Below are positions 7,477 through 21,136 of a stretch of DNA of 64,000 nt, piece by piece. The stretch is from a virus (lineage: Duplodnaviria; Caudoviricetes), in IMG/VR virus record IMGVR_UViG_3300002307_000018, positions 128,001 to 192,000 of that record. One strand, given 5' to 3'. Each line of letters begins with the position of its first letter. Positions within the stretch are counted from its first letter, which is position 1. The position numbers and the translations under genes were made by a program. The notes beneath the pieces were generated by a model that worked only from the letters and a program-made list of their open reading frames with translations, was not told the origin of the DNA and searched no databases.

Positions 7477-7678
7477 GAAAGAGCCATTCAAACATAACAG
7501 CGTCATACAGCTTGCTCATGGCCAGCTTGATCCTGTGCTTGAATGGTGCAACGAACACTGCGTGGGTGAATGGGGCTGGATGGATCATACTGATTTTGAA
7601 AAATCACTTAATAATCATTGGATATTCTTATTCGATAACGATGTTGATTATACGTACTTTCTATTACGTTGGAAATAG
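7451..7678 (+). CDS. Small 'LRW-tail' family protein (orphan; start uncertain, GTG 7451)
   Basis: EWCNEHCVG...W...FDNDVDYTYFLLRWK. Confidence 0.6.
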   Translation: MGSLFRKPKKEPFKHNSVIQLAHGQLDPVLEWCNEHCVGEWGWMDHTDFEKSLNNHWIFLFDNDVDYTYFLLRWK

Positions 7679-7696
7679 GGCTTAGTGCCCTTTTTT
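7677..7696 (+). terminator. Rho-independent terminator
   Basis: AGGGC-TTAGT-GCCCT followed by T run. Confidence 0.65.
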
Positions 7697-7719
7697 GTTG
7701 GCTGTAAAATAACGGTAAA

Positions 7720-7727
7720 GATAAATA
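7720..7727 (+). promoter_or_regulatory. T4-late-like promoter motif GATAAATA
   Basis: Same motif recurs before many genes (10538, 14488, 19888, 21489; minus strand 54060..54067). Confidence 0.6.
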
Positions 7728-7734
7728 CTGTATC

Positions 7735-9360
7735 ATGAAAATCAACCACATCACCCAATCAGTCAGCGAAGCTGCAAATCCTGCTCAACAAGCGGCTATT
7801 GCAGTCAACATGAAGCGGGCGCATAAGAAACCTAAAGCGGTGTCTGAAGTCAGTAATAAGACGCTAACGAGCTATCAGAAAAAAGTAAGTGCTGATACAA
7901 TGAAAAATAACATGGACCCAACAAAGCGCAGTCCAGAAAAAAGAAATCGTAGTGTTGCGGGCGTTGCTAAGGCTCATAATCGTTTAGAAAAAAGATTGGG
8001 TGAAGGTCGTGATCAGGATGACAAGATTCTAAGACTGTTCACTAGTGGAAAATCTCCCGAGGCAATCGCAGCACAATTGAGTATTGACGTTGATACTGTC
8101 AACGATTACATCAATAACAGAATGCCGGATTCGCAAGACAATAGCCCTCGTGGTTACAGTTCTAATCGCAATGTCGGTCAGGGAATGAACGAACAATTCG
8201 ATCCGGCGACCAAGATGATGTGGATAGATCAAGTCAGTCAATTGGCGCAAGCTGTTTCACAAATGAGTCCAGAAGAGTTAGTCAAACTAAATGATGCGTT
8301 TGAGAGTTTTTATAGAGTTGCGGGCGGTGCAACTGCCGGCGCCACCGCAGTTGGTCTCGGCAATATGTTTTATTCATTGTTGAAGGATACTTTGTACGCA
8401 GCCAAGCGTAAGGCTAGAGTTGATACTGATGAAATTCTACAACTAAAGCGTCAAATCATCAGCATTCACAAAACGTTAAAGCGAGTTAAATCTGAAAAAG
8501 CTGTTGCCAAGTATCAAGCAATGCTGAAACAAGCATTTGAAGTACTGGGAGAGTTAGAGGCTCGTCAGAGCAATCGGGTGGCTGAAGGCACAGAATCAGA
8601 ACAGGAAGAACTGGCTAAAAAAATAAGAGAGTTATTGGCAGCAGGTAAAGATAGAGAAGCAAATCATCTTCGTCACAAATTAAATAATCTCCGAGATCGA
8701 AAAAGAGATAAACATAACAGACATCAAAGTGTGGCGGAAGGCTTTGGACGCGATGATGATGATTATCATCTATTAGATGTGGGACCAACTCGTTGGTATA
8801 GGTTTAAAGATGGTAGATTTTTCACGTTTAATGTTTATCCTGGTGAAGAAAAACAAGCAGAAAGAGATGGATATAGTCGTACTCAAGCTGAAGCCAGACA
8901 AAAATCTGATCAGGGCACGGACGAGCAAAGTGTGGCGGAAGACTCTGACCCATGCTGGGATAACTACAAGCAAGTAGGCATGAAGAAGAAAAATGGTCGC
9001 AAAGTTCCCAACTGTGTGCCAAAAGAAAGCTCAAACTACGGTGATCTAGACGAAGCATTCAATCTTGAAGAAGAAATCAACAAGCTAGATGAAAAGTCAG
9101 CAGCATGGCAAAAGAAGTCAGGCAAGTCTAAGTCAGGTGGACTCAATCAAAAGGGTGTAAACTCATATCGTCGTGAACATCCTGGATCAAAACTACAAAC
9201 AGCAGTGACTACCAAGCCATCAAAACTAAAACCGGGTAGCAAGCCAGCTAAACGTCGCAAGTCATTTTGCGCTCGTATGAGTGGTATGAAGGGTCCGATG
9301 AAAGACGAACACGGTAAGCCAACACGCAAGGCACTAGCACTACGTAAATGGAACTGCTAA
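7735..9360 (+). CDS. Modular basic protein, probable internal head polyprotein (C-terminal RRKSFCARM domain)
   Basis: Repeated (S/R)VAE/VSE/LDE junctions. C-terminal WQKKSGK...RKSFCARM...RKWNC domain that I recall from T4-like phages. Confidence 0.6.
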   Translation: MKINHITQSVSEAANPAQQAAIAVNMKRAHKKPKAVSEVSNKTLTSYQKKVSADTMKNNMDPTKRSPEKRNRSVAGVAKAHNRLEKRLGEGRDQDDKILRLFTSGKSPEAIAAQLSIDVDTVNDYINNRMPDSQDNSPRGYSSNRNVGQGMNEQFDPATKMMWIDQVSQLAQAVSQMSPEELVKLNDAFESFYRVAGGATAGATAVGLGNMFYSLLKDTLYAAKRKARVDTDEILQLKRQIISIHKTLKRVKSEKAVAKYQAMLKQAFEVLGELEARQSNRVAEGTESEQEELAKKIRELLAAGKDREANHLRHKLNNLRDRKRDKHNRHQSVAEGFGRDDDDYHLLDVGPTRWYRFKDGRFFTFNVYPGEEKQAERDGYSRTQAEARQKSDQGTDEQSVAEDSDPCWDNYKQVGMKKKNGRKVPNCVPKESSNYGDLDEAFNLEEEINKLDEKSAAWQKKSGKSKSGGLNQKGVNSYRREHPGSKLQTAVTTKPSKLKPGSKPAKRRKSFCARMSGMKGPMKDEHGKPTRKALALRKWNC

Positions 9361-9361
9361 C

Positions 9362-9772
9362 ATGAGAGCCAGCGAATTCATTACCGAAGCAAAGAAAGAG
9401 TCTCATCCTGAACGAGAAAAGGGCAAGAAGTCTCCGAAACTTAATCCAGATCATGAATCCACTATGAAAAACGTTCACAAGACACGTGACGTAGGTGGAT
9501 ATGATCGTATATATCACATGAATCGCATGGGTATGGCAATGGCAATGGCAGACGGTAAGAGTCATAAGCCTGTAGATATGGATGCATCCAGTTGGACAGA
9601 AAAGTACAATACGCTACACCCATACACCGATGAAGAAGAAAACATGATTCATCAGGCAATGGCGACTATTCCAACTGATCATAAACACGTGTCTAACTCA
9701 AGAGACAGCAAAGAACCAGATCACGTACATAGAATAAGCCCAGTAACCGGCTTCAAAGGATACGCAAGATGA
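9362..9772 (+). CDS. Hypothetical protein with capsid-targeting-like N-terminus
   Basis: MRASEFITE; paralogue of next gene. Confidence 0.6.
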   Translation: MRASEFITEAKKESHPEREKGKKSPKLNPDHESTMKNVHKTRDVGGYDRIYHMNRMGMAMAMADGKSHKPVDMDASSWTEKYNTLHPYTDEEENMIHQAMATIPTDHKHVSNSRDSKEPDHVHRISPVTGFKGYAR

Positions 9773-10179
9773 GAGCAAAAGATTTTCTAACAGAAGCATC
9801 TGATGACATGTTCAATCTGCCAACATCAAAATTACCGCCTGATGTAGCAGGTGCACTGCCCGCCACCTATACAATCCCAAAATTACAAAACAACGATCCC
9901 TATCATCAATATAGATTTGGTGTAGCAATCGCCTCGGCCAAAGGTCGTGCATATGACAGAAAACAGGGTACAACACGGCTTGCACCAGCTACTCCCTGGG
10001 GCGAAAATGAAATTGTAGTAAGTTTTGATCCCGATATTGCAGAGTGGATTGATGATGCTCTAGAACAGATTGGTTTAAAACCTAGTGATAAGAAACTAAT
10101 CAGTACAATGAAAAGTCAGGAAGCGCCGGACGTTGAATACAAAAGTCCGATTCAAGGATTTAAAGGTTACGAACGATAG
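9769..10179 (+). CDS. Hypothetical protein with capsid-targeting-like N-terminus
   Basis: MRAKDFLTE; shares SPxxGFKGYxR C-terminus with previous gene. Confidence 0.6.
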   Translation: MRAKDFLTEASDDMFNLPTSKLPPDVAGALPATYTIPKLQNNDPYHQYRFGVAIASAKGRAYDRKQGTTRLAPATPWGENEIVVSFDPDIAEWIDDALEQIGLKPSDKKLISTMKSQEAPDVEYKSPIQGFKGYER

Positions 10180-10187
10180 GAAACACT

Positions 10188-10508
10188 ATGGACTTAAATG
10201 AAATACTAACAACAATAAAAAATGATTGGGCATTCTTGATGTTTGCGTTTACAATCGGTGGTATCTGGTGGCAGGGTAAAGCTTGGTTCAAAAAGATTGA
10301 TTCCGCTCTTAGTCGTGAGGGCGATGAGCATAATTCTCAATCTGCCATGCTACAGTCAATACACGATAAGATAGAAAATCTAGAAGATCGTACAACCAAG
10401 GTTGAAGAAATCGTTACACGCATACATGAAGAACAGCATGAGCAAGAAGTCAAGCTTGCAGTGTTAGAGTCAACTGCGTCACGTCGTCGCAACACATCAA
10501 GAACGTAA
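10188..10508 (+). CDS. Single-TM coiled-coil protein
   Basis: One hydrophobic helix then heptad pattern; AGGA RBS. Confidence 0.5.
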   Translation: MDLNEILTTIKNDWAFLMFAFTIGGIWWQGKAWFKKIDSALSREGDEHNSQSAMLQSIHDKIENLEDRTTKVEEIVTRIHEEQHEQEVKLAVLESTASRRRNTSRT

Positions 10509-10566
10509 ATCTCAAATAATCGTCGTTAACAAGTTTAGATAAATAGTTTATACACTCTTATAAACT

Positions 10567-13137
10567 ATGAAACCATTTGAATTTATCTATGAAAGTTTTC
10601 TAAAAGAAAGATTTAACGGCTGGAAACCAGAAATTTTCAGACGTTATGCCGACGGCACTTTCAGTGTTAGATTGCCTGACGGCTCTACACGCAAATTCAG
10701 AAACATGCAACAGTTGTATCACTATAGACGTGCAAACAATTTATTGTCTGCCAGTGAACAAGCCGCCGATGCTGTACAAGAACCAGAAGACCCAGTACAA
10801 GCTCCTGCAGTTACAAAACCAAGAGCAGTTGCAAAACCAAGAGCAGTTGCAAAACCAACGATCACAAAACCAGCAGATGCAACTCCGCCAGCAGAACCCT
10901 TATCAAAGAGCAATGTTCAACAGGGCATTGATGCTGCACAAGCAACCAAAGCAACAGGCTTTACGGCAGACCCAGAAGATCCTTCTAAAAGTTATGCAAA
11001 GTCAGTTGTTGCTAACAAGTCAAGAGAAGCAAGTACAAATCGCTATGGTATCGACAACGTATATCTTATCAATGCTGATGGTGAAGCACTAGTGTTTCAC
11101 GGGTTCGCAACAGTTCCAATGATCATGGACAGCTTTCATCAGTCTACTAGCTTTGGATTAGGCGTAGACTTGGTTAAAGCAATGGCAGCAAAGTTCCCAC
11201 ATCCAAAGCAAAGCGCAGTTATCGCTGATATTGAAGCGACTGGATATACATCTAAGAAAGATGCGTATCCTCTAAAAGTATACGGAAAGCAATACCCAAC
11301 ATTGGGCTGGGCATCAGCTGGAAAGGCAAAGATTCAGTTTGAAAGTGGAGACATGAACAAAGCAGTTGCAACAGCGGAAAGTGCTATTGCTAGTGCATTC
11401 AAGGGCAAAAATCTGCGTGGACCCGAAGGTGGTATCATATGGGTAAATCCAGGTGATCGTGCGTCTGCTATTGGATTCGCTTTAAGTCATTGCGTAAAGA
11501 CTCCAACAAAAGATTTCCCACAAACAGGCGCAGACAAAGATTGGTCTGCATATACAAAAGACAAAGAGATTACACACTATGTGTTTGGATACTTCAACAC
11601 ATCTACTGGCGGTATCGATGTTAACCCAGACAGCGGTAAGCAAGTATTCCCACAGTTTACTGTTGGTCTGATTGAGAAACTAACAGGCTTTCGTGGAGCA
11701 GGTAAGAAATCAGAAAAGCGTCAAAGTGACATCAAACCTAACACTGTACTGGGAATGTCTCCCGGCATGGCTGGTTTGAACACAGTCAATGAATTGGGTA
11801 TTGCAATTGAGGGTAGAACTCTTAACAGTCCGTTCAGTGACATATACTCTCTTATCAAGACTAACTGTGCTGATCCTAAGAAGCCACAAAAAGTCAAGAA
11901 ACTAATTGAGATCACTGACGAAACAATTGGTAAGTCAGCCAATCAAACAGTTAGCTATCCTGTAGTTATCGATGACATTTCAATGGACGAAGCTGGTTTT
12001 GCAACCAATGCAGTTACAGTTGACTTTATGGAAATTCTACACCCGCTTATTCTTATGAAGCCTGATGGCGCAGTGAATGAAGGTTTCATGGACAACGGTA
12101 TTTACGAAGCAGCATTGGCGTTCTTGGGTACAACTGATCTAAGCAAGTGCAAGGTGTTTTATCCCGCAGCGGCTAATGCTCCTATGTATGACAGTATACT
12201 GCTGTACAACAACAAGACACTAATGGTCAGTAGCAAGGGTAAAGTCGGTGCAACTCCTGCGGTTACAGGACTGGGTAGTGCGTATCTTACTTTAGTTACC
12301 AACCCTAATCTTCCAAAGCAAGTCAAAGCAGCATTCAAAGAGTTAATGACTGGTCACCCAGAGTACGGTAACTTGCTGAAATATTTCAACACAGGCGATT
12401 CATCTGACTTACCCAAAGTTGGTAAAGCAAAAGCAATTGGTCAGCAATTGCTGCAACTACAAGCAGCAAAGGGTCAAACAGCAAAACGAGCGATTGGTGT
12501 TAAAGTTGCAGCCGCACTGAATGAATTAGACAGAGGACAGTTTGTCGAGTTCTGTCAGTTTGTCATGAGTTCTACCAATCTTGTACAGGTCAACACAATG
12601 TATGACGAGCAAGATTCTAGTATCGTTGTAGAGGGTTTTACCGCTACATGGCCTAACGCAGTGTATGACAACATTGAGTTTTCATTCGGCAATCAACTTG
12701 CATTCAAACTAGCAATTGGTGGCATGGGTAGTGCAACATCCACAGATGGTCCCGACTTCGACTCGTACAAGACCATTGACAACAAGGGCAAGAAAACAGT
12801 CAAGCCACGTTTTGCAGGTTTGGGAAATTTCTCAGGTCTAACAGTTCCTGGAACAAAGGGATTGCCTTTCGGAAGAGGCGGAAAACCAGCACCAAAAGAC
12901 AATAACTGGCCCGCAACTCTAAAAGAGCTAGACACTAGATATACAAAGTTTATGCAAGAATATGAGGGACAATCTGATCGAGCCAAGAGAATAAATGCAA
13001 TAGATGAACTGCAACCATACTATGATCCTGTTGTGCAACTCGTAAGAAAGGTCGGTCACAATCCATCAATGGAAACCGGAACTACATACACAACCCGAGA
13101 TTTGCTCGATAGAATTAGAAAATTATTAGGACAATAA
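10567..13137 (+). CDS. Large hypothetical protein with capsid-targeting-like N-terminus; possible PD-(D/E)xK-like domain
   Basis: 856-aa ORF; MKPFEFIYE; KPRAVA repeats; YPxxxNxPMYDS...VSSKG. Confidence 0.55.
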   Translation: MKPFEFIYESFLKERFNGWKPEIFRRYADGTFSVRLPDGSTRKFRNMQQLYHYRRANNLLSASEQAADAVQEPEDPVQAPAVTKPRAVAKPRAVAKPTITKPADATPPAEPLSKSNVQQGIDAAQATKATGFTADPEDPSKSYAKSVVANKSREASTNRYGIDNVYLINADGEALVFHGFATVPMIMDSFHQSTSFGLGVDLVKAMAAKFPHPKQSAVIADIEATGYTSKKDAYPLKVYGKQYPTLGWASAGKAKIQFESGDMNKAVATAESAIASAFKGKNLRGPEGGIIWVNPGDRASAIGFALSHCVKTPTKDFPQTGADKDWSAYTKDKEITHYVFGYFNTSTGGIDVNPDSGKQVFPQFTVGLIEKLTGFRGAGKKSEKRQSDIKPNTVLGMSPGMAGLNTVNELGIAIEGRTLNSPFSDIYSLIKTNCADPKKPQKVKKLIEITDETIGKSANQTVSYPVVIDDISMDEAGFATNAVTVDFMEILHPLILMKPDGAVNEGFMDNGIYEAALAFLGTTDLSKCKVFYPAAANAPMYDSILLYNNKTLMVSSKGKVGATPAVTGLGSAYLTLVTNPNLPKQVKAAFKELMTGHPEYGNLLKYFNTGDSSDLPKVGKAKAIGQQLLQLQAAKGQTAKRAIGVKVAAALNELDRGQFVEFCQFVMSSTNLVQVNTMYDEQDSSIVVEGFTATWPNAVYDNIEFSFGNQLAFKLAIGGMGSATSTDGPDFDSYKTIDNKGKKTVKPRFAGLGNFSGLTVPGTKGLPFGRGGKPAPKDNNWPATLKELDTRYTKFMQEYEGQSDRAKRINAIDELQPYYDPVVQLVRKVGHNPSMETGTTYTTRDLLDRIRKLLGQ

Positions 13138-13138
13138 C

Positions 13139-14050
13139 ATGAAATTTAGTGACGTATTATTAGAAGCTGCGGACCCAAAGTTGTTAAAATATCTGTCTGG
13201 GAATAGTGACTACTATAAGGTCGGCCCAGACTATGTGTTCATTTGGACTAACGCTAGACTTCGTGAGTTGCTCAAGAACGGAGCAAGAATGGGCGATGCA
13301 GGTCTTGGAACAGTTACCACTCCAGTCAAGACATCAGATGGTCTTGGAGTTGTATCAGTGCGAACAGGAGATGTTTGCGTTGGAGCCGTTGACAGAGACT
13401 ATGTTGCCAGATGGGTAAGCAGTGTTCCTGATGGTGATCCTGCCAGATTTTTCAGAACAATTCAAAGCAGTAAGATCAGAGAGCTACCAACAAAACTTCA
13501 AGACTTGGGCGATTACTACAGCACTGAGTCGGAAAAGAGTGATCCTAATCGAGTGACTAGCAAGGGCGTTCAGAAAATTATTGACACCATCAACACGAAT
13601 GATGATTATGAATTTCTCAGAGATGACTCAGAAATTTTAGATATTGAAGATATGAGTCCTAGCGAAGCAAAAAGTCATTTTGAAGAAGCAATTAGAAAAA
13701 TGAAACACAGAGAAAAAATTCTTCAAAAACAAGTCAAGAAAATAATGGATATCATGAGAGAGAAAGAAGATCAACTTTCTGATGAAGAAATATTAGACTT
13801 GGGTAGACAAGCAAAAAGAATGGGTGGAACTGAGATTCGTGGAATTTCATTGGTAGTCAATGATCTAGAAAGATTCATCAAACGTGAAGCGAATCTATTC
13901 ATTGATGACACAGAAGAAAAAGCAGACGATGAAGAAGAAATCAACGACACCGACACTGACAACAAGATTGATCTGTGGATGGAAGAATTTGAAACTAACT
14001 TTCCTGGTCTTGAGATCAGAGACTCGCATCAATTTGACCCTAACATCTAA
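13139..14050 (+). CDS. Hypothetical protein with capsid-targeting-like N-terminus
   Basis: MKFSDVLLE; acidic C-terminus. Confidence 0.6.
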   Translation: MKFSDVLLEAADPKLLKYLSGNSDYYKVGPDYVFIWTNARLRELLKNGARMGDAGLGTVTTPVKTSDGLGVVSVRTGDVCVGAVDRDYVARWVSSVPDGDPARFFRTIQSSKIRELPTKLQDLGDYYSTESEKSDPNRVTSKGVQKIIDTINTNDDYEFLRDDSEILDIEDMSPSEAKSHFEEAIRKMKHREKILQKQVKKIMDIMREKEDQLSDEEILDLGRQAKRMGGTEIRGISLVVNDLERFIKREANLFIDDTEEKADDEEEINDTDTDNKIDLWMEEFETNFPGLEIRDSHQFDPNI

Positions 14051-14052
14051 CT

Positions 14053-14499
14053 ATGAAATGGCACGAGATCACCAACGAGGCTGTCAACGAGAAAATATTT
14101 CAGCGTGGGTTTGAAGAAACAAAACCATACGACAAATACATTCTTGTGGCCAAGCATGGTGAACTGCCCTACGTTCCCAACAAACGTGCTACACGCAGTG
14201 ATCAGTTTAGAGTAGAATGTCGCAAGGGTGGAGCTGTGATTGCATGGGTCAACTTTGCTCTTGCTAACGACCACTTAGAAGCTATCGATGTAAACGTTGA
14301 CAACAAGTATCGTCGTCAGGGTATAGCCACTGCTATGTACAAGTTTGCTCGTGAGTTAGGAAACGACATCAAACCATCATCAAAACAACGCCCACTAGGT
14401 CGTGCATTCTGGAGTGACAAGACATCGGAAGTTCTCAAAGAAGTTACCGATCTACAACCGCCGGCAATTCTTGACGGTCTTAACATAGATAAATACTAG
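14053..14499 (+). CDS. GNAT-family acetyltransferase
   Basis: VDNKYRRQGIATAMY acetyl-CoA motif A. Confidence 0.8.
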   Translation: MKWHEITNEAVNEKIFQRGFEETKPYDKYILVAKHGELPYVPNKRATRSDQFRVECRKGGAVIAWVNFALANDHLEAIDVNVDNKYRRQGIATAMYKFARELGNDIKPSSKQRPLGRAFWSDKTSEVLKEVTDLQPPAILDGLNIDKY

Positions 14500-14502
14500 A
14501 CT

Positions 14503-16350
14503 ATGAAATTTGAAGAACTCAACCAACAGCTAGATGAAGTACGCATGGCGCAAAGCAATTTGCAACAGTTCTTGAACTCGCCACGCGCCGCGGGTATGCG
14601 CGCTGGATTTGAAGCAGAACTTATTTTTGCCGGTGCTGCATATTCAATCTACGATGATAACAATGTACAGTACGTTGATGATATGTCAGAAGATGAAAGC
14701 ACTCATGATATAGACTCTATCATTGAGTTCTTTTCTCAGAATGATTACGATTCTCATCAGATACGCAGACTTAGAAACCAATTGTGGAACAATTATACTG
14801 AGTGGCGTGATAAAGTATCTCTAAATGATTTCAGACACAGAGATAAAGAAATGGTAAAGCTGTGGATTGAAGATTATGGCTGGGACGTGACTGCTAAAAT
14901 CGAAGAGTATCTTCGTGACGAGATGGGTCTTAATGAGAAACAAGTATCTGATGCACGTCGAAGAGGTAATTATTATGCAGATAAAATCGACAGTTCAAAA
15001 CAACAACAGAAATTTCGTGAAGCAGATAAGGACTATGATAATTTCTTAAAAGCATCTTTTGCAGTAGATGAAAAATTAGACGAACTAGTAGAAGAAGAAG
15101 TAGAGTTTGAGGGCAAGGCATGGCAAGCAGCCTACGATGAATGGCGCGATGAAGATGACTATGATCAAGAACACTGGTTAGAAGCAAATGATTATACTTC
15201 TATGAGTTCTATTCAGTATGACTATGACATAAATTGGCCCTTTCAAATCGAAGATGAGGATTCAGATCGAAGTGGATACTCTTATGAGGGCGCAGAGGCG
15301 CTTGCTAATTCGCTACATGATGATCTTGGAGTGCAAACAAAAGTAACAAGTAGCTATCACGCTCAAACAAAAGATGGCGTTAGTTGGTATTTTGAACCTG
15401 ATGGTTCATTACGTCCCGATGAAGAAGATGACATGCCATGTGAGATTGTATCTCCGCCCTTACCCTTAAAAGAAACACATGACATTCTTCCCTTATTCTT
15501 TCAATGGGTAGACGAAAATGAGGGCTACGCCAACAAGTCAACAGGCTTTCATATGAGCTTGAGTATGCCTGATCACAAGCCAGCAACAGTTGACTTTCTA
15601 AAGCTGGCATTGTTCATGGGCGATGAGCATGTACTAACAAATTTTAGCAGACAAGCAAACGAATACTGCGAAAGTTCACTAGGCATTATTAGAAATAGAT
15701 TGACAAATATGTCATCTCAAGAAGATATAACAACTAGATTAGATTTGGCATTCAGCGCAATGCGTAAAAATTTGCTTGATCTTGCAAGCAAGGCAGTAAA
15801 CACTCGTGGTCAGGGAAAATTCGTATCAATCAATGATCGTGGTAACTACATTGAGTTTCGTAGTGCAGGTGGATCAAACTACTTTAGCGACATCAATCTT
15901 GTGCAAAACACGCTGTTGCGTTATGCGTATGCTATGAGTATTGCTAGCGATCCCACAGCAGAACGTCAAGAGTATGCCAAGAAACTATACAAGTTCTTGG
16001 CTCCTGCAATTCAATCTAGCCCTGATGCAATGCAGTACTTTGTACAGTACACAACAGGTCAATTGACACGCCCAGAACTGGTAAGCGCCGTCAAACAAGT
16101 AGTCAGAAAGCGTCAACTAGCAAAACGTACACCAGATCAAATAGCGGCAGATCAAGATGGCGTACATAATTACTGGGAGTTACGCAATACTAGTCAGGGA
16201 AATGCACTTAATTTGTTTTCGGCCACCGGTCGTGAAGATGCTTATCGACAAGCACTAGATTGGGCGCAACGTCATCTTGGTCTGCGTATGTCAGCATTAC
16301 CTGCAAACTTAGAAGTTAATAGAGTAACTGATGATCCGGACCATTCATAA
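14503..16350 (+). CDS. Putative amidoligase (COOH-NH2 ligase type 2)
   Basis: GFEAE, PDGSL, EIVSPP, TGFH and IEFRS motifs. Confidence 0.72.
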   Translation: MKFEELNQQLDEVRMAQSNLQQFLNSPRAAGMRAGFEAELIFAGAAYSIYDDNNVQYVDDMSEDESTHDIDSIIEFFSQNDYDSHQIRRLRNQLWNNYTEWRDKVSLNDFRHRDKEMVKLWIEDYGWDVTAKIEEYLRDEMGLNEKQVSDARRRGNYYADKIDSSKQQQKFREADKDYDNFLKASFAVDEKLDELVEEEVEFEGKAWQAAYDEWRDEDDYDQEHWLEANDYTSMSSIQYDYDINWPFQIEDEDSDRSGYSYEGAEALANSLHDDLGVQTKVTSSYHAQTKDGVSWYFEPDGSLRPDEEDDMPCEIVSPPLPLKETHDILPLFFQWVDENEGYANKSTGFHMSLSMPDHKPATVDFLKLALFMGDEHVLTNFSRQANEYCESSLGIIRNRLTNMSSQEDITTRLDLAFSAMRKNLLDLASKAVNTRGQGKFVSINDRGNYIEFRSAGGSNYFSDINLVQNTLLRYAYAMSIASDPTAERQEYAKKLYKFLAPAIQSSPDAMQYFVQYTTGQLTRPELVSAVKQVVRKRQLAKRTPDQIAADQDGVHNYWELRNTSQGNALNLFSATGREDAYRQALDWAQRHLGLRMSALPANLEVNRVTDDPDHS

Positions 16351-17228
16351 TGAAATCAACAGAATTTCTAACTGAAACTCTGAGTCGTGTTGCGTATCAT
16401 TATACAAGACTAGACAAAGCGGCAAAGATCATGAAAGCTGGACAATTTGAATTGTCTAGTGATCTAGGCAGCGTAGAACAACAGTACTCACCCAAGGGCT
16501 ATCGTTACTTCTTAAGCACTGCTCGAACAAAAACTGGTGGATATCACGCTATGATTGGTAGTGATGCTACTATGTTTGTGCTAGACGGTAACTGGTTCAA
16601 TAATCACTATATATCAAAACCAGTAGACTACTGGCTCAATCGTGATCCATCACAATTACATCATCGTTCGCATGAAGCAGAAGATCGTGTGTTTTCAAAA
16701 ACACCCACAATACCTGTTGATGGAGTTAGTTCCATTCATATTCTAATCAAACCAGAACGTGCTCATGAATATGCAGGTGCTTGGGCAAGAACAGTACTGA
16801 TCAATGCAAAGAGACGAAACATACCAGCATACTTGTACAATGATGAAACTGCATGGCGTCGTTTAGACACCAGCAAAGCACAACCAATTTCCAACAACCC
16901 AGCATTGCGTGGTCAACAACACATTGTTACCAGACAATCTAGATACAATCTCAAAGGGTATTTACATTCATGGTTACAGTTGATCAATGCTACTGATCAA
17001 AAACAACTGACTAAAGATGCAGATAAACTACGCTATAGTCTAAAATATAATCAAGACTCTAAAGACGCTCTTCAAGGACTTGCAAATGAAATGTCTAACG
17101 CTCGTAAGCCTGACAATGGCATAGATCGTGAGAACGCAGTCAATATCATTCGCTATATGCAGAAGAATCGAATGAACGATTTAAGTGACTTGATAAAACA
17201 TTTACAAAAGAAGTGGTCTACAGAATGA
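16350..17228 (+). CDS. Hypothetical protein, possible ADP-ribosyltransferase fold
   Basis: YHYT...FLSTAR...FVLDG...EAEDR pattern; MKSTEFLTE N-terminus. Confidence 0.4.
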   Translation: MKSTEFLTETLSRVAYHYTRLDKAAKIMKAGQFELSSDLGSVEQQYSPKGYRYFLSTARTKTGGYHAMIGSDATMFVLDGNWFNNHYISKPVDYWLNRDPSQLHHRSHEAEDRVFSKTPTIPVDGVSSIHILIKPERAHEYAGAWARTVLINAKRRNIPAYLYNDETAWRRLDTSKAQPISNNPALRGQQHIVTRQSRYNLKGYLHSWLQLINATDQKQLTKDADKLRYSLKYNQDSKDALQGLANEMSNARKPDNGIDRENAVNIIRYMQKNRMNDLSDLIKHLQKKWSTE

Positions 17229-18022
17229 AGATCAATGAAATTTTACTAGAGTCTAGCTATCACAAGTTACCTGCGCTTCAAACTGTCTTTGAGGCAGGGT
17301 GGGATCGTCAACCTATCAAACACTACAGTGACAAGGAACAGGCGGAGATACATCGTGCGGAAGAATTGCCCTGGGATTCAAAAAATCAAAAAGATATCTT
17401 GGGCTATACCGGCAACGGCGCCAGTAAGTGGAATGATTTTCTACATCGTCACTATCGTGGGCTAGCCAAACCAGCAGCAATTGAAAAATACGGCAAGCGT
17501 GTGTCAGGTGTTGATCGTGAACTGGCAAAAAATGTGCTGAAGAAAGACTACGTTCTCTATACTGGTTTACCAGAAAGCCCAATTGAAGCATTCAAGCTGT
17601 ATAAACAGCCAACCAATCGACCACTGACTGTTCATCTACCTGCATACACCAGCACCATCACTAGATGGGACATTGCAGCCGGGTTTGCGACCAATCAAGC
17701 TAGTTGGGATCCTATTGATCGCAGTGGACATAAAGTTTTAGATCCAACGGGCAAACAAATAAAAAACTCACAAAAAAAGAATAAGAGAATTCGAGAATTT
17801 GACATACTCAGAATTTTTGTACCAGCAGGAACCACAGGTGCCAGCGTTGCAGAACTATCGCAGAACTACGATGAGGCTGAAGTATTACTGCCACGTGGAC
17901 TGAATATAGTTATCTCTCCCAATCCACATCAAGTTGAATATCGAGGCGATATCTTTTATGTTTGGAATGCAAAGGTAGTAGGACACACGCCACAGCCGAT
18001 TGTATTTGACCAAAAAGATTGA
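17225..18022 (+). CDS. VIP2/Alt-like ADP-ribosyltransferase
   Basis: YTG...N..L, YTST, LRIFVPAG and EAEVLLPRG (ExE) motifs. Confidence 0.72.
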   Translation: MKINEILLESSYHKLPALQTVFEAGWDRQPIKHYSDKEQAEIHRAEELPWDSKNQKDILGYTGNGASKWNDFLHRHYRGLAKPAAIEKYGKRVSGVDRELAKNVLKKDYVLYTGLPESPIEAFKLYKQPTNRPLTVHLPAYTSTITRWDIAAGFATNQASWDPIDRSGHKVLDPTGKQIKNSQKKNKRIREFDILRIFVPAGTTGASVAELSQNYDEAEVLLPRGLNIVISPNPHQVEYRGDIFYVWNAKVVGHTPQPIVFDQKD

Positions 18023-18046
18023 CATTACATCTGAGTATGCTATAAT
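18019..18046 (+). promoter_or_regulatory. sigma70-type promoter (leaderless start)
   Basis: TTGACA-16-TATAAT; ATG 6 nt downstream. Confidence 0.7.
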
Positions 18047-18052
18047 AGATAC

Positions 18053-18250
18053 ATGACTGAACAAACAAAATCAACCGTAGAAGCCGTAACTTACGAGGTC
18101 GTTACAAAGATCGATCCTGAAACTGGAGACACCATTCTTCCTATTCCACCAGAACTTCTGCAACGCATGGGTTGGAAAGAGGGTGATGAACTTGACATTG
18201 GACACGATACCGAGGGTCGCATTGTATTCACCAAGCGTGGTGGAACATGA
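18053..18250 (+). CDS. AbrB/MazE/SpoVT-like DNA-binding protein
   Basis: ILPIPPELLQRMGWKEGDELDI. Confidence 0.7.
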   Translation: MTEQTKSTVEAVTYEVVTKIDPETGDTILPIPPELLQRMGWKEGDELDIGHDTEGRIVFTKRGGT

Positions 18251-18621
18251 GTACAACTCCACCACTTACAATCAACACAGGAGCAGGCGTTGCCGGTAGT
18301 TCTGGTATCGGCGGTCAAATGCTGATACTTAGTGCCAACGGACCGCAATGGAACAAATCTGGCATCGACACCTCTTTGGGACTTTTTGTCAAGGGTGACG
18401 CTGAGATTGGGGGCACACTAACAGTGGGCGGGCAAGAAATCACCAAGACAATTGACGAACGATTATCTGCCATTGAAGAGCGTCTTGGCATTCTCAGAGT
18501 AGACGAAAAGCTGGCAGATCGCTGGGCAGAATTGGGCGAATTGCGTAAACGCTATAGAGAATTGGAACAAGAGTGCTGGGAAAAGGACGAAATCATTCGT
18601 TTGCTCAAGGGAAAAACTTGA
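18247..18621 (+). CDS. Hypothetical protein with C-terminal coiled coil
   Basis: ATGA-coupled ORF. Confidence 0.55.
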   Translation: MSTTPPLTINTGAGVAGSSGIGGQMLILSANGPQWNKSGIDTSLGLFVKGDAEIGGTLTVGGQEITKTIDERLSAIEERLGILRVDEKLADRWAELGELRKRYRELEQECWEKDEIIRLLKGKT

Positions 18622-18646
18622 CAATAAATCCCACTTGTGCTATAAT
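18618..18646 (+). promoter_or_regulatory. sigma70-type promoter
   Basis: TTGACA-17-TATAAT with extended TG. Confidence 0.8.
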
Positions 18647-18676
18647 GTACTATAATCTACTATTACGGTACAAACT

Positions 18677-19057
18677 ATGACAATGCACTTGACACACTTC
18701 ACGACTACTGGCAAACGCAAAGGTAAGCTTAAGTATGCTTCTGCCGAAGCCAAGCGTACGGCAGAACAATTGGAACAAGACTGGCAGGCACTAAAGAAAT
18801 CTTACAGTGCGCCACCAGTCAAAAAGCCCATCAAAAATTCCAGAACTCTTGGCAAAAGTCTGCCCACGATCCCGCAGCGTGGGTCATTGTTGTCTGCACC
18901 CTCGCTCAATTCTGGCATTGGCATTGCGGCAAAAGCACCTGTGCCTGTGTATACGGGCGACAAGATCAAGGGTATTGGCACAATGCACAAGAGTAATGCG
19001 GTGCCTGTGTTCAGTGATGAAGAAGCACACGACATTTCCAAAATGAGACGAGGATAA
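18677..19057 (+). CDS. Conserved T4-like phage hypothetical protein
   Basis: YTGDKIKGIGTMHKSNAVPV motif. Confidence 0.6.
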   Translation: MTMHLTHFTTTGKRKGKLKYASAEAKRTAEQLEQDWQALKKSYSAPPVKKPIKNSRTLGKSLPTIPQRGSLLSAPSLNSGIGIAAKAPVPVYTGDKIKGIGTMHKSNAVPVFSDEEAHDISKMRRG

Positions 19058-19071
19058 GCTAAATACATTAT

Positions 19072-19287
19072 ATGGCAAAAGAAGAACCGATTATATTAAC
19101 AGGAGTTGTCACTGAACTGCTTCCCGCTGGAACATTCCGAATTAAATTACCTAACGACAAACTCGTACTAGGGCATTTATCTGGAAAAATTCGTCAACAC
19201 GCAATAAAGGTGTTATTAGGTGATCAGGTATCTATCGAATTTTCCCCGTATGATCTGACTAAAGGCAGAATTGTCCGGAGATTATAA
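19072..19287 (+). CDS. infA: Translation initiation factor IF-1
   Basis: [47 protein letters not shown]. Confidence 0.92.
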
Positions 19288-19892
19288 TGTACTTTTTGTA
19301 TGAAAAAACTCACAAGCAGACCGGACTTAAATATCTAGGTCAAACAAAAGAGAACCCGTATCTTTATACGGGTTCTGGCATTGATTGGAGAAAACATCTT
19401 AAAGAATACGGTAGCGAGATAGATACTTATGTATTATTTCAATCTGAAATTTGGAATGAAATTGTTTATTGGGGTAGATATTACAGTCAACTATATAACA
19501 TCGTCAATGCTCAAGACGACTTTGGAAATAAAATCTGGGCTAATCGTATACCAGAAACTGGAGGTGGCGGAAGTGATTGGAACGAAGAAACAAAATTAAA
19601 GCACAAGATGTCGTTGAAAGCATCACATAGTATGTCATCAGTTAAAGAAATTGATAGATTAAATGGCATAAAAAGTGCAAATTTACGAATTCAAAATAAA
19701 ACACATAATTTATTGGGTTCTAATAATGTAAATTTTGATCACAAAATTCATGAATTTTATCATAATGATGGAACTGTCGAAAATGTCACACGAAAAGAAA
19801 TGATGATAAAATATGACTATCTATCTCATTCTGGAATGTCGTTACTCATAAATGGGCTTCAATCTCATCACAAAGGATGGAGAGTACGATAA
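19287..19892 (+). CDS. Seg-like GIY-YIG homing endonuclease (free-standing)
   Basis: LYEKTHKQTGLKYLGQT...YTGSG..W.KHL; AT-rich. Confidence 0.7.
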   Translation: MYFLYEKTHKQTGLKYLGQTKENPYLYTGSGIDWRKHLKEYGSEIDTYVLFQSEIWNEIVYWGRYYSQLYNIVNAQDDFGNKIWANRIPETGGGGSDWNEETKLKHKMSLKASHSMSSVKEIDRLNGIKSANLRIQNKTHNLLGSNNVNFDHKIHEFYHNDGTVENVTRKEMMIKYDYLSHSGMSLLINGLQSHHKGWRVR

Positions 19893-19901
19893 ATACTATC
19901 T

Positions 19902-20456
19902 ATGCGTGAACTCATTACCCTACTAGAAGCAAAGTCAAAAGACGATATCGGCATTGTCGATCTATCGTACAAAGAGGATGCGCTTGCTCCAACAATGAGC
20001 AAGGATACTATCAAGCTACATTGGGGTAAACTAGCATACGCTTACGCTGAACGATTCAACAAGGGCGAGGGCGATCCCGAGTTCAACTATGCAGGCGCAA
20101 TGCTGCATAACATCTTCTTTGCACAGTTTCGTGAAGGTAGAAACAAGAATGAACCCAACGGTCCCGTTGGTAATCTAATCAAACAAAAATTCAAAAACTT
20201 CTCTAACTTCTGTGATGAGTTTACATCATCAGCCATGTCTATTCAGGGCAGCGGATGGTGCTATCTATCACGCAGCGGAGAAATCAAAACAATACCCAAT
20301 CATGCAATGCGTACTGACATATTGATACTAGTCGATATGTGGGAACATGCTTACTTGCTAGACTACGGCAGTGACAAAAGCAAGTATCTAGCTGATATTT
20401 GGCGCATTATGGATTGGAACAAAATCAATGCAGTATGGGGTCAAGCTTACAAATGA
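19902..20456 (+). CDS. sod: Fe/Mn superoxide dismutase
   Basis: ALAP.MSK.TI.LH, HNIFF, GSGW and DMWEHAY motifs. Confidence 0.85.
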   Translation: MRELITLLEAKSKDDIGIVDLSYKEDALAPTMSKDTIKLHWGKLAYAYAERFNKGEGDPEFNYAGAMLHNIFFAQFREGRNKNEPNGPVGNLIKQKFKNFSNFCDEFTSSAMSIQGSGWCYLSRSGEIKTIPNHAMRTDILILVDMWEHAYLLDYGSDKSKYLADIWRIMDWNKINAVWGQAYK

Positions 20457-21136
20457 AACAGTCAGAGATCATAAACGAAATAATACCACTATCTCAAAGA
20501 GCTTTTAAGGGTGAAATTGAGCCTCTTAGCCCCGAAGAACGTAGACAGTTACGTGGAGCTAAACCACTTCCTGGAGGTAGCAAATACTTTTACAAAGTCA
20601 TTGCTAATACTAATGGCAATACCATTCGTCTTATCGATCACGATCACGCTAACAAAGTCATAGGTGAATTGATAATACTAACCGATGTGCAGTTTCCCAT
20701 AAAGAATTCTGCTCATATATCATCGATTGAAATAGACGAGGCGTATCGTGGTCAGGGACTAGCAAAAGCACTGTACGGTATTGCCATGGCTATACTAAAA
20801 TACACACTGATTGCTGGCAACAGTCAGACTCCCGGTGGCCGCAGAAACTGGGTCAGCTTGTACAATATACCCAATGTTGTAGTGCAAGGTTATGTCATGA
20901 TTGATGATGCATACTTGAAGAATGACAACGATTTTATCGACAGAATTATGCACATTGGCGCTGAGTATCTTGGTAAAATCGGTGGGAGAAAAAGAACAGA
21001 TCATTTCTTTGCATTCCCGCTTACAATTGACAAACTTCAACTGAAGAATGCAATCAAGGGCAGCGACTTTGATCTGTACAGCCATCACGGCCACGTGGCC
21101 ATAGAAGTAGGTATGTTTGCTCAATGGAAACCTTAA
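20453..21136 (+). CDS. GNAT-family acetyltransferase
   Basis: IEIDEAYRGQGLAKALY motif. Confidence 0.75.
   Translation: MKQSEIINEIIPLSQRAFKGEIEPLSPEERRQLRGAKPLPGGSKYFYKVIANTNGNTIRLIDHDHANKVIGELIILTDVQFPIKNSAHISSIEIDEAYRGQGLAKALYGIAMAILKYTLIAGNSQTPGGRRNWVSLYNIPNVVVQGYVMIDDAYLKNDNDFIDRIMHIGAEYLGKIGGRKRTDHFFAFPLTIDKLQLKNAIKGSDFDLYSHHGHVAIEVGMFAQWKP

What the first reader, a model, noticed from the sequence alone, without database searches (positions are those of the whole stretch)
7735..9360. Probable protease-processed polyprotein built from cassettes joined by a 16-nt repeat
Seen: the 541-aa ORF is a string of short, compositionally distinct, often K/R-rich modules. They are separated by QSVSE/A, KAVSE/V, RLGE/G, GMNE/Q, RVAE/G, QSVAE/G, QSVAE/D, LDE/A and LDE/K. 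Two junctions share the exact DNA repeat CAAAGTGTGGCGGAAG (8725..8740 and 8926..8941). Known: T4 prohead protease cleaves after hydrophobic-x-E. Inference: one packaged precursor is cut into about 10 peptides (DNA-binding/condensing or effector), and modules are swapped by recombination at the SVAE-coding repeat.
Basis: partly seen in the sequence, partly recalled or inferred. Interest (0 to 1): 0.68.

Follow-up and report, generated by a model that had tools for sequence, protein, structure and literature searches.

The report
Shuffled head-cargo polyprotein of giant phage
A late gene of an uncultured freshwater T4-like giant phage strings about eight small, mostly basic protein modules together with short linkers that look like cutting sites of the phage's head protease; related phages have swapped modules exactly at these linkers, but neither cutting nor packaging has been measured.

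Summary
The 541-aa ORF (7735..9360, +) is real. The exact 16-nt repeat (8725..8740 and 8926..8941) brackets one module, F.

Recombination at the linkers is shown by comparison. Two syntenic orthologues (94% nt identity) share the ends of the gene. Their middle holds different modules, and the breaks fall at VAE|G and at the SSNYGDLDE joint. Cassette F with both linkers is 95-97% nt identical in three otherwise unrelated genes, and identity starts and stops inside the linker codons.

Packaging and cutting are inferred, not shown. The evidence is:
- a T4 capsid-targeting-like leader;
- a T4-late-promoter-like motif 7 nt before the ATG;
- a following block of ten tagged genes;
- hydrophobic-x-Glu kept at every joint, with synonymous codon changes;
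- the same motif directly before the DUF6321 core in 116 of 121 relatives;
- a complete 364-kb relative with a T4-type gp20-gp21-gp22-gp23 head module;
- a cyanophage homologue annotated as a virion protein.

This 74%-complete record holds no head-protease gene.

The same scan has already noted this kind of polyprotein on at least eight other genomes. I found no paper that describes it. I class it as a new variant of T4 internal-protein biology.

The parts
7677..7700 (+). Intrinsic-terminator-like hairpin and T run that ends the upstream unit
   Evidence: stem 7677-7691 with 4 G-C pairs, followed by a T run
7720..7729 (+). GATAAATACT, a T4-late-promoter-like motif. It ends 5 nt before the ATG (7 nt after the GATAAATA core), so the mRNA is probably leaderless.
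   Evidence: ATAAATACT occurs 17 times in the record against 6 expected; 10 of these lie 3-8 nt before an ATG of an ORF of 50 aa or more, and at least 6 of those ORFs carry the tag
7735..9360 (+). Polyprotein gene, 541 aa, pI 9.7, 61 kDa
7735..7770 (+). Leader, aa 1-12 (MKINHITQSVSE|A). It resembles a capsid-targeting sequence and ends in V-S-E.
   Evidence: T4 CTS as described in PMC9026906
7771..7848 (+). Module A, aa 13-38, basic (pI 10.5), ends KAVSE|
   Evidence: in P0109, P0116, P0147 and P0073 it follows an N-terminal tag directly
7849..8004 (+). Module B, aa 39-90, basic (pI 10.5), ends RLGE|. It is absent from orthologue P0004 and present in other contexts in P0011 and P0017-19.
8005..8193 (+). 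Module C, aa 91-153: a LuxR/GerE-like three-helix HTH (aa 91-130) plus a disordered tail that ends GMNE|
   Evidence: GerE 19.9 bits, below the 23.5 cut-off; pLDDT 78-90, then 27-38; LuxR-type HTHs, rmsd 0.6-0.9 A over 30-34 aa
8194..8586 (+). Module D, aa 154-284: all-helical, with a Gly/Ala-rich hydrophobic stretch, ends N-x-V-A-E|
   Evidence: N, V, A and E invariant in 10 sequences; the start follows VTE|, VAE| or MNE|
8587..8739 (+). Module E, aa 285-335, basic helical. This is the first module of the replaceable middle.
   Evidence: homology to L004 stops at 8589; P0015, P0016
8725..8740 (+). Left copy of the 16-nt repeat, coding QSVAE|G
8740..8940 (+). Module F, aa 336-402, acidic (pI 4.7): the mobile cassette
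   Evidence: 95.3-97.3% nt identity to L007, L008 and L009 over window 8723/8729 to 8941/8942 only
8926..8941 (+). Right copy of the 16-nt repeat, coding QSVAE|D
8941..9054 (+). Module G, aa 403-440: a two-Cys beta-hairpin (CW..YK..G.KKK...VPNCVP) plus the SSNYGDLDE| joint
   Evidence: strands at model residues 14-22 and 25-32, pLDDT 85; 93 proteins, 38 different left and 69 different right neighbours; the joint is duplicated in P0003
9055..9357 (+). Module H, aa 441-541: an acidic helix, LDE|KS, then the DUF6321 core (Pfam match aa 463-539), very basic (pI 10.5)
   Evidence: PF19846, 76.1 bits, cut-off 28.5; pLDDT about 93
9362..21136 (+). Downstream block of ten genes whose products start with the M-[KR]-x-x-[DE]-[IFV]-[ILT]-x-E tag. 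This is context, not part of the ORF.

Best explanation
What it is. The gene encodes a precursor of internal head ('cargo') proteins of a T4-like jumbo phage.

Shown by comparison. The gene is a chain of eight modules of 26-131 aa behind a 12-aa leader. Related phages exchange, insert and delete single modules in frame by recombination within the short DNA that encodes the linkers. Cassette F, bracketed by the 16-nt repeat, is a recent import.

Inferred.
1. The gene is transcribed late from a TATAAATA-like promoter.
2. The N-terminal capsid-targeting-like leader takes the whole chain into the scaffolding core of the prohead.
3. The gp21-type prohead protease cuts after Glu of each hydrophobic-x-Glu linker. 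This releases a leader and about eight or nine small peptides or domains in equal amounts.
4. Five of these are strongly basic, so they probably stay with the packed DNA as T4 IPI-III do and enter the host with it.

One targeting tag would thus load many cargoes. Because the cut site is also the recombination joint, any module placed between two linkers is automatically packaged and released. That would let the cargo set change quickly.

What each module does is not known. C is a LuxR-type HTH, D is helical with a membrane-like segment, and H is DUF6321.
For: Mosaic structure and recombination:
- homologues share 72-96% identity over only 14-49% of the query.
- syntenic orthologues differ by whole modules. 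DNA homology breaks at window 8589 (aa 285) and resumes at 9031 or 9014.
- cassette F is 95-97% nt identical in L007, L008 and L009, while the shared DUF6321 part is only 76-77% identical.
- of 51 fragment families, 37 have at least 2 different left and at least 2 different right neighbours.
- QGVAEG linkers in the clade use the rare codons GTG (15% background) and GCG (9%).

Protease-site reading:
- motif enrichment, and homology breakpoints close to the motif.
- V-A-E is kept through synonymous change (GTG GCT GAA in the window, GTA GCG GAA in L004 and L005), and other joints use other residues and codons (VSE, LGE, MNE, VEE, VTE).
- N-x-V-A-E is invariant at the end of module D.
- modules A, G, the GLWANIHAK module and DUF6321 follow an N-terminal tag directly in other proteins, so tag end and linker are interchangeable.
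- [LIVMF]xE lies 0-2 aa before the DUF6321 core in 116 of 121 relatives.
- linkers fall in low-confidence stretches between confident small folds; the Atlas whole-protein model has pTM 0.22.

Head context:
- 77 of 166 relatives start with the tag, against 17 of 1922 internal Met.
- tagged-gene block and shared promoter-like motif.
- G001 is a complete 364-kb relative (rIIA 50% identical over its full length). It has gp20, an acidic core protein, gp21 (Peptidase_S77, 95.5 bits), gp22 and gp23, plus a polyprotein of more than 900 aa joined by GVAE and ending in DUF6321, followed by tagged genes.
- 4 of 5 large IMG/VR records with DUF6321 proteins have the protease.
- cyanomyovirus homologues lie in the structural module, after g16 in Syn9 and just before g17 in S-SCSM1. 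S-SCSM1 gene 29 is annotated 'virion protein' in a record whose paper (PMC9602691) named virion proteins by mass spectrometry.

Established knowledge: T4 gp21 cuts after L/I-x-E, and a 10-aa CTS suffices for packaging (PMC9026906; PMC3012670).
Against: - No proteomic or biochemical datum shows that this protein, or any homologue, is cut at these sites.
- The protease, scaffold, portal and capsid genes are absent from this 74%-complete record. The near-identical 353-355-kb relatives could not be searched. The link to a gp21-type protease therefore rests on a more distant complete relative.
- Most linkers have Val at P3, whereas the T4 rule and the phage's own N-terminal tags have Ile or Leu. 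Cutting at V-x-E is assumed.
- This gene's leader is atypical: 12 aa, with Gln where the usual tag has its Glu.
- Rare-codon identity of the QGVAEG DNA shows that part of the linker conservation is at the DNA level and needs no protease.
- One natural linker reads SVTKG, with Glu lost, without loss of the gene.
- The C-terminal half of DUF6321 also occurs in T7-like cyanophages, which have no such protease.
- The S-SCSM1 'virion protein' label could not be traced to peptide data in the supplement.
Confidence: 0.6

Rival explanations
1. The protein is a packaged, or at least late, multidomain 'polyvalent' protein that stays whole or is cut only behind the leader. On this view the linkers are flexible joints. 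Their conservation comes from their role as DNA-level recombination joints, or from hitch-hiking with cassettes, not from proteolysis.
For:: QGVAEG linkers are identical down to rare codons across genes and genomes; flanking linkers match each other within each genome, and a linker with Glu changed to Lys persists in L008. Polyvalent phage proteins that act as one chain are known (PMC5512222; N4 vRNAP is packaged unprocessed).
Against: Hydrophobic-x-Glu is kept with different residues and codons at joints that share no DNA motif. The same motif ends the N-terminal tags and precedes DUF6321 in 116 of 121 relatives. Modules occur directly behind tags as if the two contexts were equivalent. None of this is explained by DNA-level recombination alone.
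Confidence: 0.2
2. The protein is a scaffold or core component like T4 gp22, gp67 and gp68. It is packed into the prohead and cut at many sites so that the pieces can leave the head before or during DNA packaging. The modules would then be disposable filler, not delivered cargo.
For: T4 core proteins are cut into several fragments that mostly leave the head (PMC9026906). Multiple sites that help to clear propeptides are described for phiKZ and SPN3US (PMC5694885). The acidic core protein of G001 carries similar SVEE|G and GVVE|G motifs.
Against: Five of eight modules are strongly basic (pI 9.4-10.5), like the DNA-bound T4 IPs and unlike acidic core proteins. Modules include folded domains (HTH, DUF6321 with pLDDT about 93) and, in relatives, enzyme-like modules. 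The gene lies among tagged enzymes, not in the head-assembly module. The rapid cassette turnover seen here is not what I would expect of an assembly scaffold.
Confidence: 0.1
3. The protein is not a virion protein. It is a cytoplasmic late protein, for example a DNA-binding or regulatory protein, and its leader and Glu motifs only resemble T4 signals by chance.
For: No head genes lie nearby in this record. The leader departs from the phage's usual 9-aa tag. An HTH module is present.
Against: The tag is about 50-fold enriched at true N-termini over internal Met. The gene shares a promoter-like motif with tagged genes. Homologues lie in the structural module, between g16 and g17, in cyanomyoviruses and are annotated as virion or structural proteins. 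A DUF6321 gene lies between the scaffold and capsid genes even in a T7-like phage.
Confidence: 0.05

Closest known systems
T4 and T-even internal proteins IPI, IPII, IPIII and Alt: capsid-targeting sequence removed by prohead protease gp21 (PMC3012670, PMC9026906)
   Same: Both have a short N-terminal leader ending in hydrophobic-x-Glu and late expression. The products are small and basic. The set is highly variable between related phages. The phage lineage is T4-like (rIIA, a gp23-derived peptide, a TATAAATA-like motif; head module seen in a complete relative).
   Different: In T4 one gene gives one cargo protein, cut once behind the tag. Here one gene carries about eight cargoes joined by internal cut-site-like linkers, and exchange happens inside the reading frame. 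There is no sequence similarity to IPI-III. P3 is mostly Val rather than Ile or Leu.
T4 core proteins gp22, gp67 and gp68, and phiKZ/SPN3US inner-body and ejection proteins, which are cut at several sites by gp21-type proteases (PMC9026906, PMC5694885)
   Same: One precursor with several x-x-Glu sites is processed inside the prohead.
   Different: Those are single conserved proteins whose fragments are propeptides or scaffold debris. They are not chains of unrelated, independently recurring modules, and shuffling at the sites has not been described for them.
Polyvalent proteins of phages and conjugative elements (Iyer et al. 2017, PMC5512222)
   Same: Many unrelated domains sit in one polypeptide in a late or virion context, and are predicted to be delivered with the DNA. 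The domain sets vary combinatorially. ParB-like and methyltransferase-like modules occur in relatives, below Pfam cut-offs.
   Different: Polyvalent proteins are anchored by MuF, portal-associated or relaxase-type domains and, where processed, by their own zincin-like peptidase. Here there are a T4-type tag, uniform protease-type linkers and mostly tiny non-enzymatic modules. None of the hallmark domains was found.
PeSL cassettes of T4-type genomes (PMC2839356, PMC4122927) and the glycine-rich motifs of gp38 adhesins (PMC3157838)
   Same: Short conserved DNA motifs that flank variable segments serve as joints for modular shuffling between T4-type phages.
   Different: PeSLs are intergenic promoter and stem-loop units that move whole genes. 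Here the joint is a 15-17-nt coding linker that keeps the frame and, by inference, also specifies a cut site.
Pfam DUF6321 (PF19846)
   Same: The C-terminal module is a clear member (76.1 bits, cut-off 28.5).
   Different: The family has no assigned function or solved fold. No convincing structural match was found (Foldseek no E <= 0.001, VIA-align best Z 3.7).

Membership tests
T4-type internal (head cargo) proteins | N-terminal capsid-targeting sequence of about 10-19 aa that ends in L/I-x-Glu | tested here: inconclusive
   The leader MKINHITQSVSE|A starts like the phage's common tag (MKINEI.TE) but is 12 aa long and ends V-S-E. No targeting assay is possible with these tools.
T4-type internal (head cargo) proteins | The phage encodes a gp21-type (Peptidase_S77) prohead protease and a scaffolding core | tested here: inconclusive
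   Absent from this 74%-complete record. Present in the complete relative G001 (95.5 bits, with gp20, gp22 and gp23) and in 4 of 5 large records with DUF6321 proteins. The near-identical relatives were not searchable.
T4-type internal (head cargo) proteins | Late transcription | tested here: inconclusive
   The GATAAATA core of GATAAATACT ends 7 nt before the ATG. The motif is enriched and placed the same way before other tagged genes.
T4-type internal (head cargo) proteins | Physical presence in the head, and cleavage after Glu | not testable with these tools
   The only lead is a homologue annotated 'virion protein' (S-SCSM1 gene 29; virion proteome by mass spectrometry, PMC9602691). No peptide-level data were found.
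T4-type internal (head cargo) proteins | Sequence homology to IPI, IPII, IPIII or Alt | tested here: not met
   No Pfam or PHROG match to these. Residues 1-402 match nothing in GenBank phages. T-even internal proteins are themselves mutually unrelated apart from the tag (PMC3012670), so this does not exclude the functional class.
DUF6321 (PF19846) | Profile match above the curated cut-off | tested here: met
   aa 463-539, E 3.3e-21, 76.1 bits against 28.5.
Polyvalent proteins (Iyer et al. 2017) | Between 2 and 15 unrelated domains in one chain, in a phage late or packaging context | tested here: met
   Eight modules with independent distributions, next to tagged putative cargo genes.
Polyvalent proteins (Iyer et al. 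2017) | Hallmark domains (MuF, DarB-like helicase or methylase, ART, MPTase peptidase, relaxase and others) | tested here: not met
   None in the query. Relatives show only sub-threshold ParB_N and methyltransferase matches.
LuxR/GerE helix-turn-helix (PF00196), module C | Profile match above the cut-off, and the fold | tested here: inconclusive
   19.9 bits, below the 23.5 cut-off. The AF2 model is a three-helix unit with pLDDT 78-90. Local Foldseek matches to DesR, RcsB, VqmA and VpsT HTHs have rmsd 0.6-0.9 A over 30-34 aa and probability 0.97-1.0, but E > 0.1.
PeSL-type shuffling cassettes | Intergenic early promoter plus stem-loop flanking whole genes | tested here: not met
   The joints lie inside the reading frame and code for the linker. 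The resemblance is one of mechanism only.

The most novel reading that the evidence does not exclude
The linker is a dual-use element. The same 15-17 nt would specify a head-protease cut site in the protein and act as a dedicated in-frame recombination joint in the DNA. It might be serviced by copy-choice, single-crossover insertion or an endonuclease-triggered conversion, which would explain why the two linkers flanking a cassette match each other within each genome. Together these would form a phage 'exon-shuffling' system that builds combinatorial arsenals of injected mini-proteins across thousands of aquatic T4-like phages.
Probability: 0.3. Interest if true: 0.8.

Novelty: new variant of a known kind. 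Interest (0 to 1): 0.66.

Why it matters
T4 internal proteins are the textbook case of phage proteins delivered with the DNA, and at least one of them (IPI) is an anti-restriction weapon.

If this reading is right, many aquatic T4-like phages load not one protein per gene but a whole, quickly re-assortable set of mini-proteins from one tagged precursor. The cut site doubles as the joint where modules are exchanged between phages.

That would:
- give a concrete mechanism for fast turnover of injected cargo;
- name candidate cargo for hundreds of uncharacterised small phage domains, among them DUF6321, the Cys-hairpin module and the GLWANIHAK module;
- offer a natural design rule for packing several foreign proteins into T4-type capsids.

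It can be tested directly by virion mass spectrometry in cultured cyanophages that carry homologues.

Tried and rejected
- Close DNA relatives in GenBank phages: none. Residues 1-402 match nothing there by tblastn.
- T4 head and tail proteins, and the head proteins of the closer relative G001, against the own record: the only hit is the small gp23-derived peptide gene. The protease cannot be shown in this genome.
- Whole-record search of the two 353-355-kb orthologous contigs: these records are not held.
- Search with G001 gp21 for a hit on those contigs: the best 120 of more than 8000 hits were all at least 90% identical, and none lay on a contig of those lengths.
- One alignment of 96 homologous fragments for a whole-protein fold: MAFFT misplaced the fragments (mean column identity 8%). 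I folded two parts instead.
- Fold searches of the G+H model: Foldseek found no match with E <= 0.001, and VIA-align against 48,161 chains gave a best Z of 3.7. The beta-hairpin's likeness to defensin hairpins (22 aa) is trivial.
- Atlas search for module D: only generic matches of the transmembrane-helix-plus-long-helix kind.
- Papers: no paper holds 'DUF6321', none holds Syn9 together with gp114, and none that held at least two of 'polyprotein', 'prohead protease', 'ejection proteins' and 'internal proteins' used 'polyprotein'.
- The S-SCSM1 supplement lists gene 29 only as a hypothetical protein, without peptide data.
- Rejected readings: an artefactual fusion of several genes (the frame is continuous in several independent assemblies), and internal translation starts at the linkers (no ATG follows them).
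Full report
**The object.** The window is bases 128001-192000 of a 264,637-bp IMG/VR virus record rated 74% complete. It carries rIIA (42832..45039, minus strand), an ATP-dependent DNA ligase and a small gene holding a gp23-derived peptide. It has no close DNA relative among GenBank phages.

The ORF 7735..9360 (+) encodes 541 aa with pI 9.7. An intrinsic-terminator-like hairpin (7677-7691 plus a T run) ends the unit upstream. The motif GATAAATACT (7720-7729) ends 5 nt before the ATG. ATAAATACT occurs 17 times in the record against 6 expected. Ten of these sites lie 3-8 nt before an ATG that opens an ORF of at least 50 aa, and most of those ORFs begin with the tag described below. From my own knowledge, the motif resembles the T4 late promoter TATAAATA.

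**Checking the observation.** The 16-nt repeat is exact, occurs only at 8725 and 8926, and does not extend on either side. About 3e-4 such repeats are expected in an ORF of this length.

Pfam recognises only DUF6321 at aa 463-539 (76.1 bits), plus a sub-threshold GerE-type HTH at aa 97-129. PHROGs matches cover only aa 370-541, in families of unknown function.

**Mosaic relatives.** A search with residues 1-400 returned proteins that are 72-96% identical to the query over only 14-49% of its length. Their sequences show the same blocks in other orders and combinations. The blocks are always joined by G/S-V-[A/S/T/E]-E followed by G, A or D.

Two of these proteins, P0002 and P0003, lie on 355-kb and 353-kb contigs. 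Their loci are syntenic with the window: metallophosphatase and dCMP deaminase upstream, the two small tagged genes and the roughly 890-aa gene downstream. At the DNA level they are 94% identical to the window.

The alignment of P0001-P0004 shows three things:
- a shared leader, modules A, C and D, and the DUF6321 tail;
- module B missing from P0004, and an extra module inserted right after RLGE|G in P0002 and P0003;
- a middle region (query aa 285-432) that holds different modules in every orthologue.

DNA homology to L004 stops at window 8589, the third base of codon 285 and directly after VAE|G. It resumes at 9031, at SSNYGDLDE. In P0003 that nine-residue joint occurs twice and brackets one further module.

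**The cassette between the repeats.** Window 8723/8729 to 8941/8942 matches L007 at 95.9% nt identity, L008 at 97.3% and L009 at 95.3%. In the same genes the shared DUF6321 part is only 76-77% identical, and the flanks that adjoin the cassette are not alignable.

The four-way alignment shows near-identity that begins inside the left linker codons and ends with the right linker. Module F with its two linkers is therefore a discrete unit of about 217 bp that has moved recently between genes in different contexts. L004, L005 and L007 come from one metagenome sample.

In three of the four genomes the two flanking linkers resemble each other more than they resemble their counterparts elsewhere: QSVAE/QSVAE, SVTE/SVTE and PGVAE/PGVAE. 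In L008 the left linker has Lys in place of Glu.

**Family-wide tests.** The exhaustive search found 5350 representative clusters at E <= 0.001, nearly all through the DUF6321 tail. I analysed 166 proteins:
- V, I, L and M two residues before Glu are 1.5-2.0 times over-represented against shuffles (z 6-18).
- GVAEG is the commonest such pentapeptide.
- Internal ends of ungapped homology lie a median 4-5 aa from the nearest [LIVM]xE, against 15 aa for random positions.
- After in-silico cutting at the motif, 51 fragment families have at least 3 members, and 37 of them have at least 2 different neighbours on both sides. The Cys-hairpin module G occurs in 93 proteins, with 38 different left and 69 different right neighbours.

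These proteins are related to each other and were selected through the query, so the figures describe a pattern and are not independent trials.

**Is the linker a protein signal, a DNA signal, or both?** The evidence points to both.

For a protein signal:
- Joints use different residues and codons (VSE, LGE, MNE, VAE, VEE, VTE).
- The joint after module D keeps V-A-E through synonymous change (GTG GCT GAA in the window, GTA GCG GAA in L004 and L005).
- N-x-V-A-E is invariant in ten diverged copies of module D.

For a DNA signal:
- The QGVAEG linkers of the clade (L008, L019, L020, and L031 of G001) are written CAAGGTGTGGCGGAAG almost without change.
- They use GTG and GCG, which make up 15% and 9% of Val and Ala codons in the rest of these genes.

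**The head-protease reading.** T4 gp21 cuts after Glu of L/I-x-E. The 10-19-aa propeptides of IPI-III are capsid-targeting sequences, and ten residues are enough to pack foreign proteins (PMC9026906; PMC3012670). The following observations fit that scheme:
- 77 of 166 relatives begin with M-[KR]-x-x-[DE]-[IFV]-x-x-E-like tags. The same pattern fits 17 of 1922 internal Met.
- In the own record about 15 ORFs carry the tag. Ten of them form an uninterrupted block at window 9362-21136, directly behind this gene.
- This gene's leader starts like the tag but has Gln where the tag has its Glu, and ends three residues later in V-S-E.
- Modules that follow a linker here follow an N-terminal tag directly elsewhere. 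Examples are module A in P0109, P0116 and P0147, module G in P0058 and P0064, and DUF6321 in P0120 and P0129. Tag end and linker therefore behave as equivalents.
- In 116 of 121 relatives a [LIVMF]-x-E ends 0-2 residues before the DUF6321 core. Glu is at position -2 in 98 of them, and L, I or V at -4 in 87. This is the canonical T4 rule.
- Structure predictions agree with beads on a string. The HTH has pLDDT 78-90, followed by a disordered stretch over GMNE|Q with pLDDT 27-38. The hairpin G has pLDDT 85, the SSNYG stretch is below 50, and DUF6321 is about 93. The Atlas whole-chain model has pTM 0.22.

**The protease itself.** Neither Peptidase_S77 nor T4 gp18, gp19, gp20 or gp23 is found in this record, even with queries from a closer relative. 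The structural region presumably lies in the missing 90 kb or so.

G001 is a complete 364,247-bp genome with terminal repeats, and its rIIA is 50% identical to ours over its full length. It has gp20, an acidic core protein, gp21 (95.5 bits), gp22 and gp23 in T4 order. It also has a polyprotein of more than 900 aa joined by GVAE and ending in DUF6321, followed by three tagged genes. Four of five large IMG/VR records with DUF6321 proteins have the protease, and the fifth is only 34% complete.

In cyanomyoviruses the homologues lie in the structural module, after g16 (Syn9 gp114) and just before g17 (S-SCSM1 gene 29). S-SCSM1 gene 29 is annotated 'virion protein', and the paper reports a virion proteome of 45 proteins by mass spectrometry (PMC9602691). 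I could not find the peptide list.

**What speaks against it.** Nothing shows cutting. Val rather than Ile or Leu at P3 is assumed to be tolerated. Part of the linker conservation is at the DNA level. A 71-aa gene with the C-terminal half of DUF6321 lies between the scaffold and capsid genes of a T7-like cyanophage, a phage type without this protease. That domain is therefore not tied to gp21 processing, although it is again found among head genes.

**The modules.**
- A, B, E and H are very basic, and D is moderately so.
- C is a LuxR-type HTH.
- D is helical with a Gly/Ala-rich hydrophobic stretch. The model has low confidence, and only generic matches of the transmembrane-helix-plus-long-helix kind were found.
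- G is a two-Cys beta-hairpin.
- H (DUF6321) folds with high confidence, but no solved structure resembles it convincingly.
- Relatives carry sub-threshold ParB-like, methyltransferase-like and SutA-RBD-like modules.

**Comparison with what is known.** The system works like the T4 internal proteins and uses their signals. It differs in putting many cargoes behind one tag and in exchanging them in frame.
- Multi-site processing is known for core and inner-body proteins (PMC9026906, PMC5694885).
- Multi-domain delivered 'polyvalent' proteins are known (PMC5512222).
- Motif-mediated shuffling in T4-type genomes is known for intergenic PeSLs and for gp38 (PMC2839356, PMC4122927, PMC3157838).

I found no paper that describes the combination. 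Earlier notes of this same scan describe the same kind of polyprotein on at least eight other genomes. They are unchecked AI notes and agree with what I tested here.

**Verdict.** I class it as a new variant of a known kind, with interest 0.66.

Noticed in passing
window 8725-8740 and 8926-8941; L007:6313-6330 and 6514-6530; L009:257-274 and 454-470: The two linkers that flank cassette F match each other within each genome better than they match the same linker in other genomes (QSVAE/QSVAE, SVTE/SVTE, PGVAE/PGVAE). This looks like concerted change. It may hint at insertion by a single crossover or copy-choice within one pre-existing linker.
   Followed up: partly
L008:6131-6150: The left linker of cassette F reads SVTKG: Glu is replaced by Lys through one G-to-A change. 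The presumed cut site is lost, but the gene stays open.
   Followed up: no
L005:11381-11407 and 11630-11656: In orthologue P0003 the SSNYGDLDE joint occurs twice and brackets an extra module of about 74 aa. This is a second kind of linker, flanking an insertion as a direct repeat.
   Followed up: partly
window 9362-9772 and 9769-10179: Two adjacent paralogous 136-aa tagged genes (MRASEFITE, MRAKDFLTE) overlap by ATGA and end alike (GFKGYAR, GFKGYER). They match no family.
   Followed up: no
window 9362-21136: Ten consecutive genes start with the capsid-targeting-like tag. In the syntenic relatives several of them carry enzyme-like domains (acetyltransferase, amidoligase, ADP-ribosyltransferase-like). 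Only a few have their own promoter-like motif, so they may be co-transcribed with the polyprotein gene.
   Followed up: partly
L097:3393-3608 (Synechococcus T7-like phage S-TIP37): A 71-aa gene holding the C-terminal half of DUF6321 lies between the capsid-assembly (scaffold) gene and the capsid gene of a T7-like cyanophage, a phage type without a gp21-type protease.
   Followed up: no
L004:73-2099 and L005:449-2087: Two ClpP-family protease genes lie about 8-10 kb upstream of the polyprotein gene in the 353-355-kb relatives. I did not examine whether they have any role in processing.
   Followed up: no
G000:C1:6354-6713 (locus L002:1354-1713, minus strand): A 119-aa gene joins a copy of the conserved N-terminal peptide of mature gp23 to an unrelated small domain. 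The peptide is 60.5% identical to G001 gp23 residues 64-101 and 45% to T4 gp23 residues 94-142. It is the only trace of the capsid gene in this record.
   Followed up: partly
L096:7876-8709, minus strand (G001): The acidic core protein upstream of gp21 in the complete relative contains SVEE|G, GVVE|G, LAE|A and VAE|S motifs. These are the same linker-like sites, in a presumed protease substrate.
   Followed up: no
P0021, P0006 and L031:137-2899: Relatives' polyproteins hold sub-threshold ParB_N (23.8 bits), SutA RNAP-binding-domain (25.2 bits) and methyltransferase (21.8 bits) modules between the same linkers.
   Followed up: no
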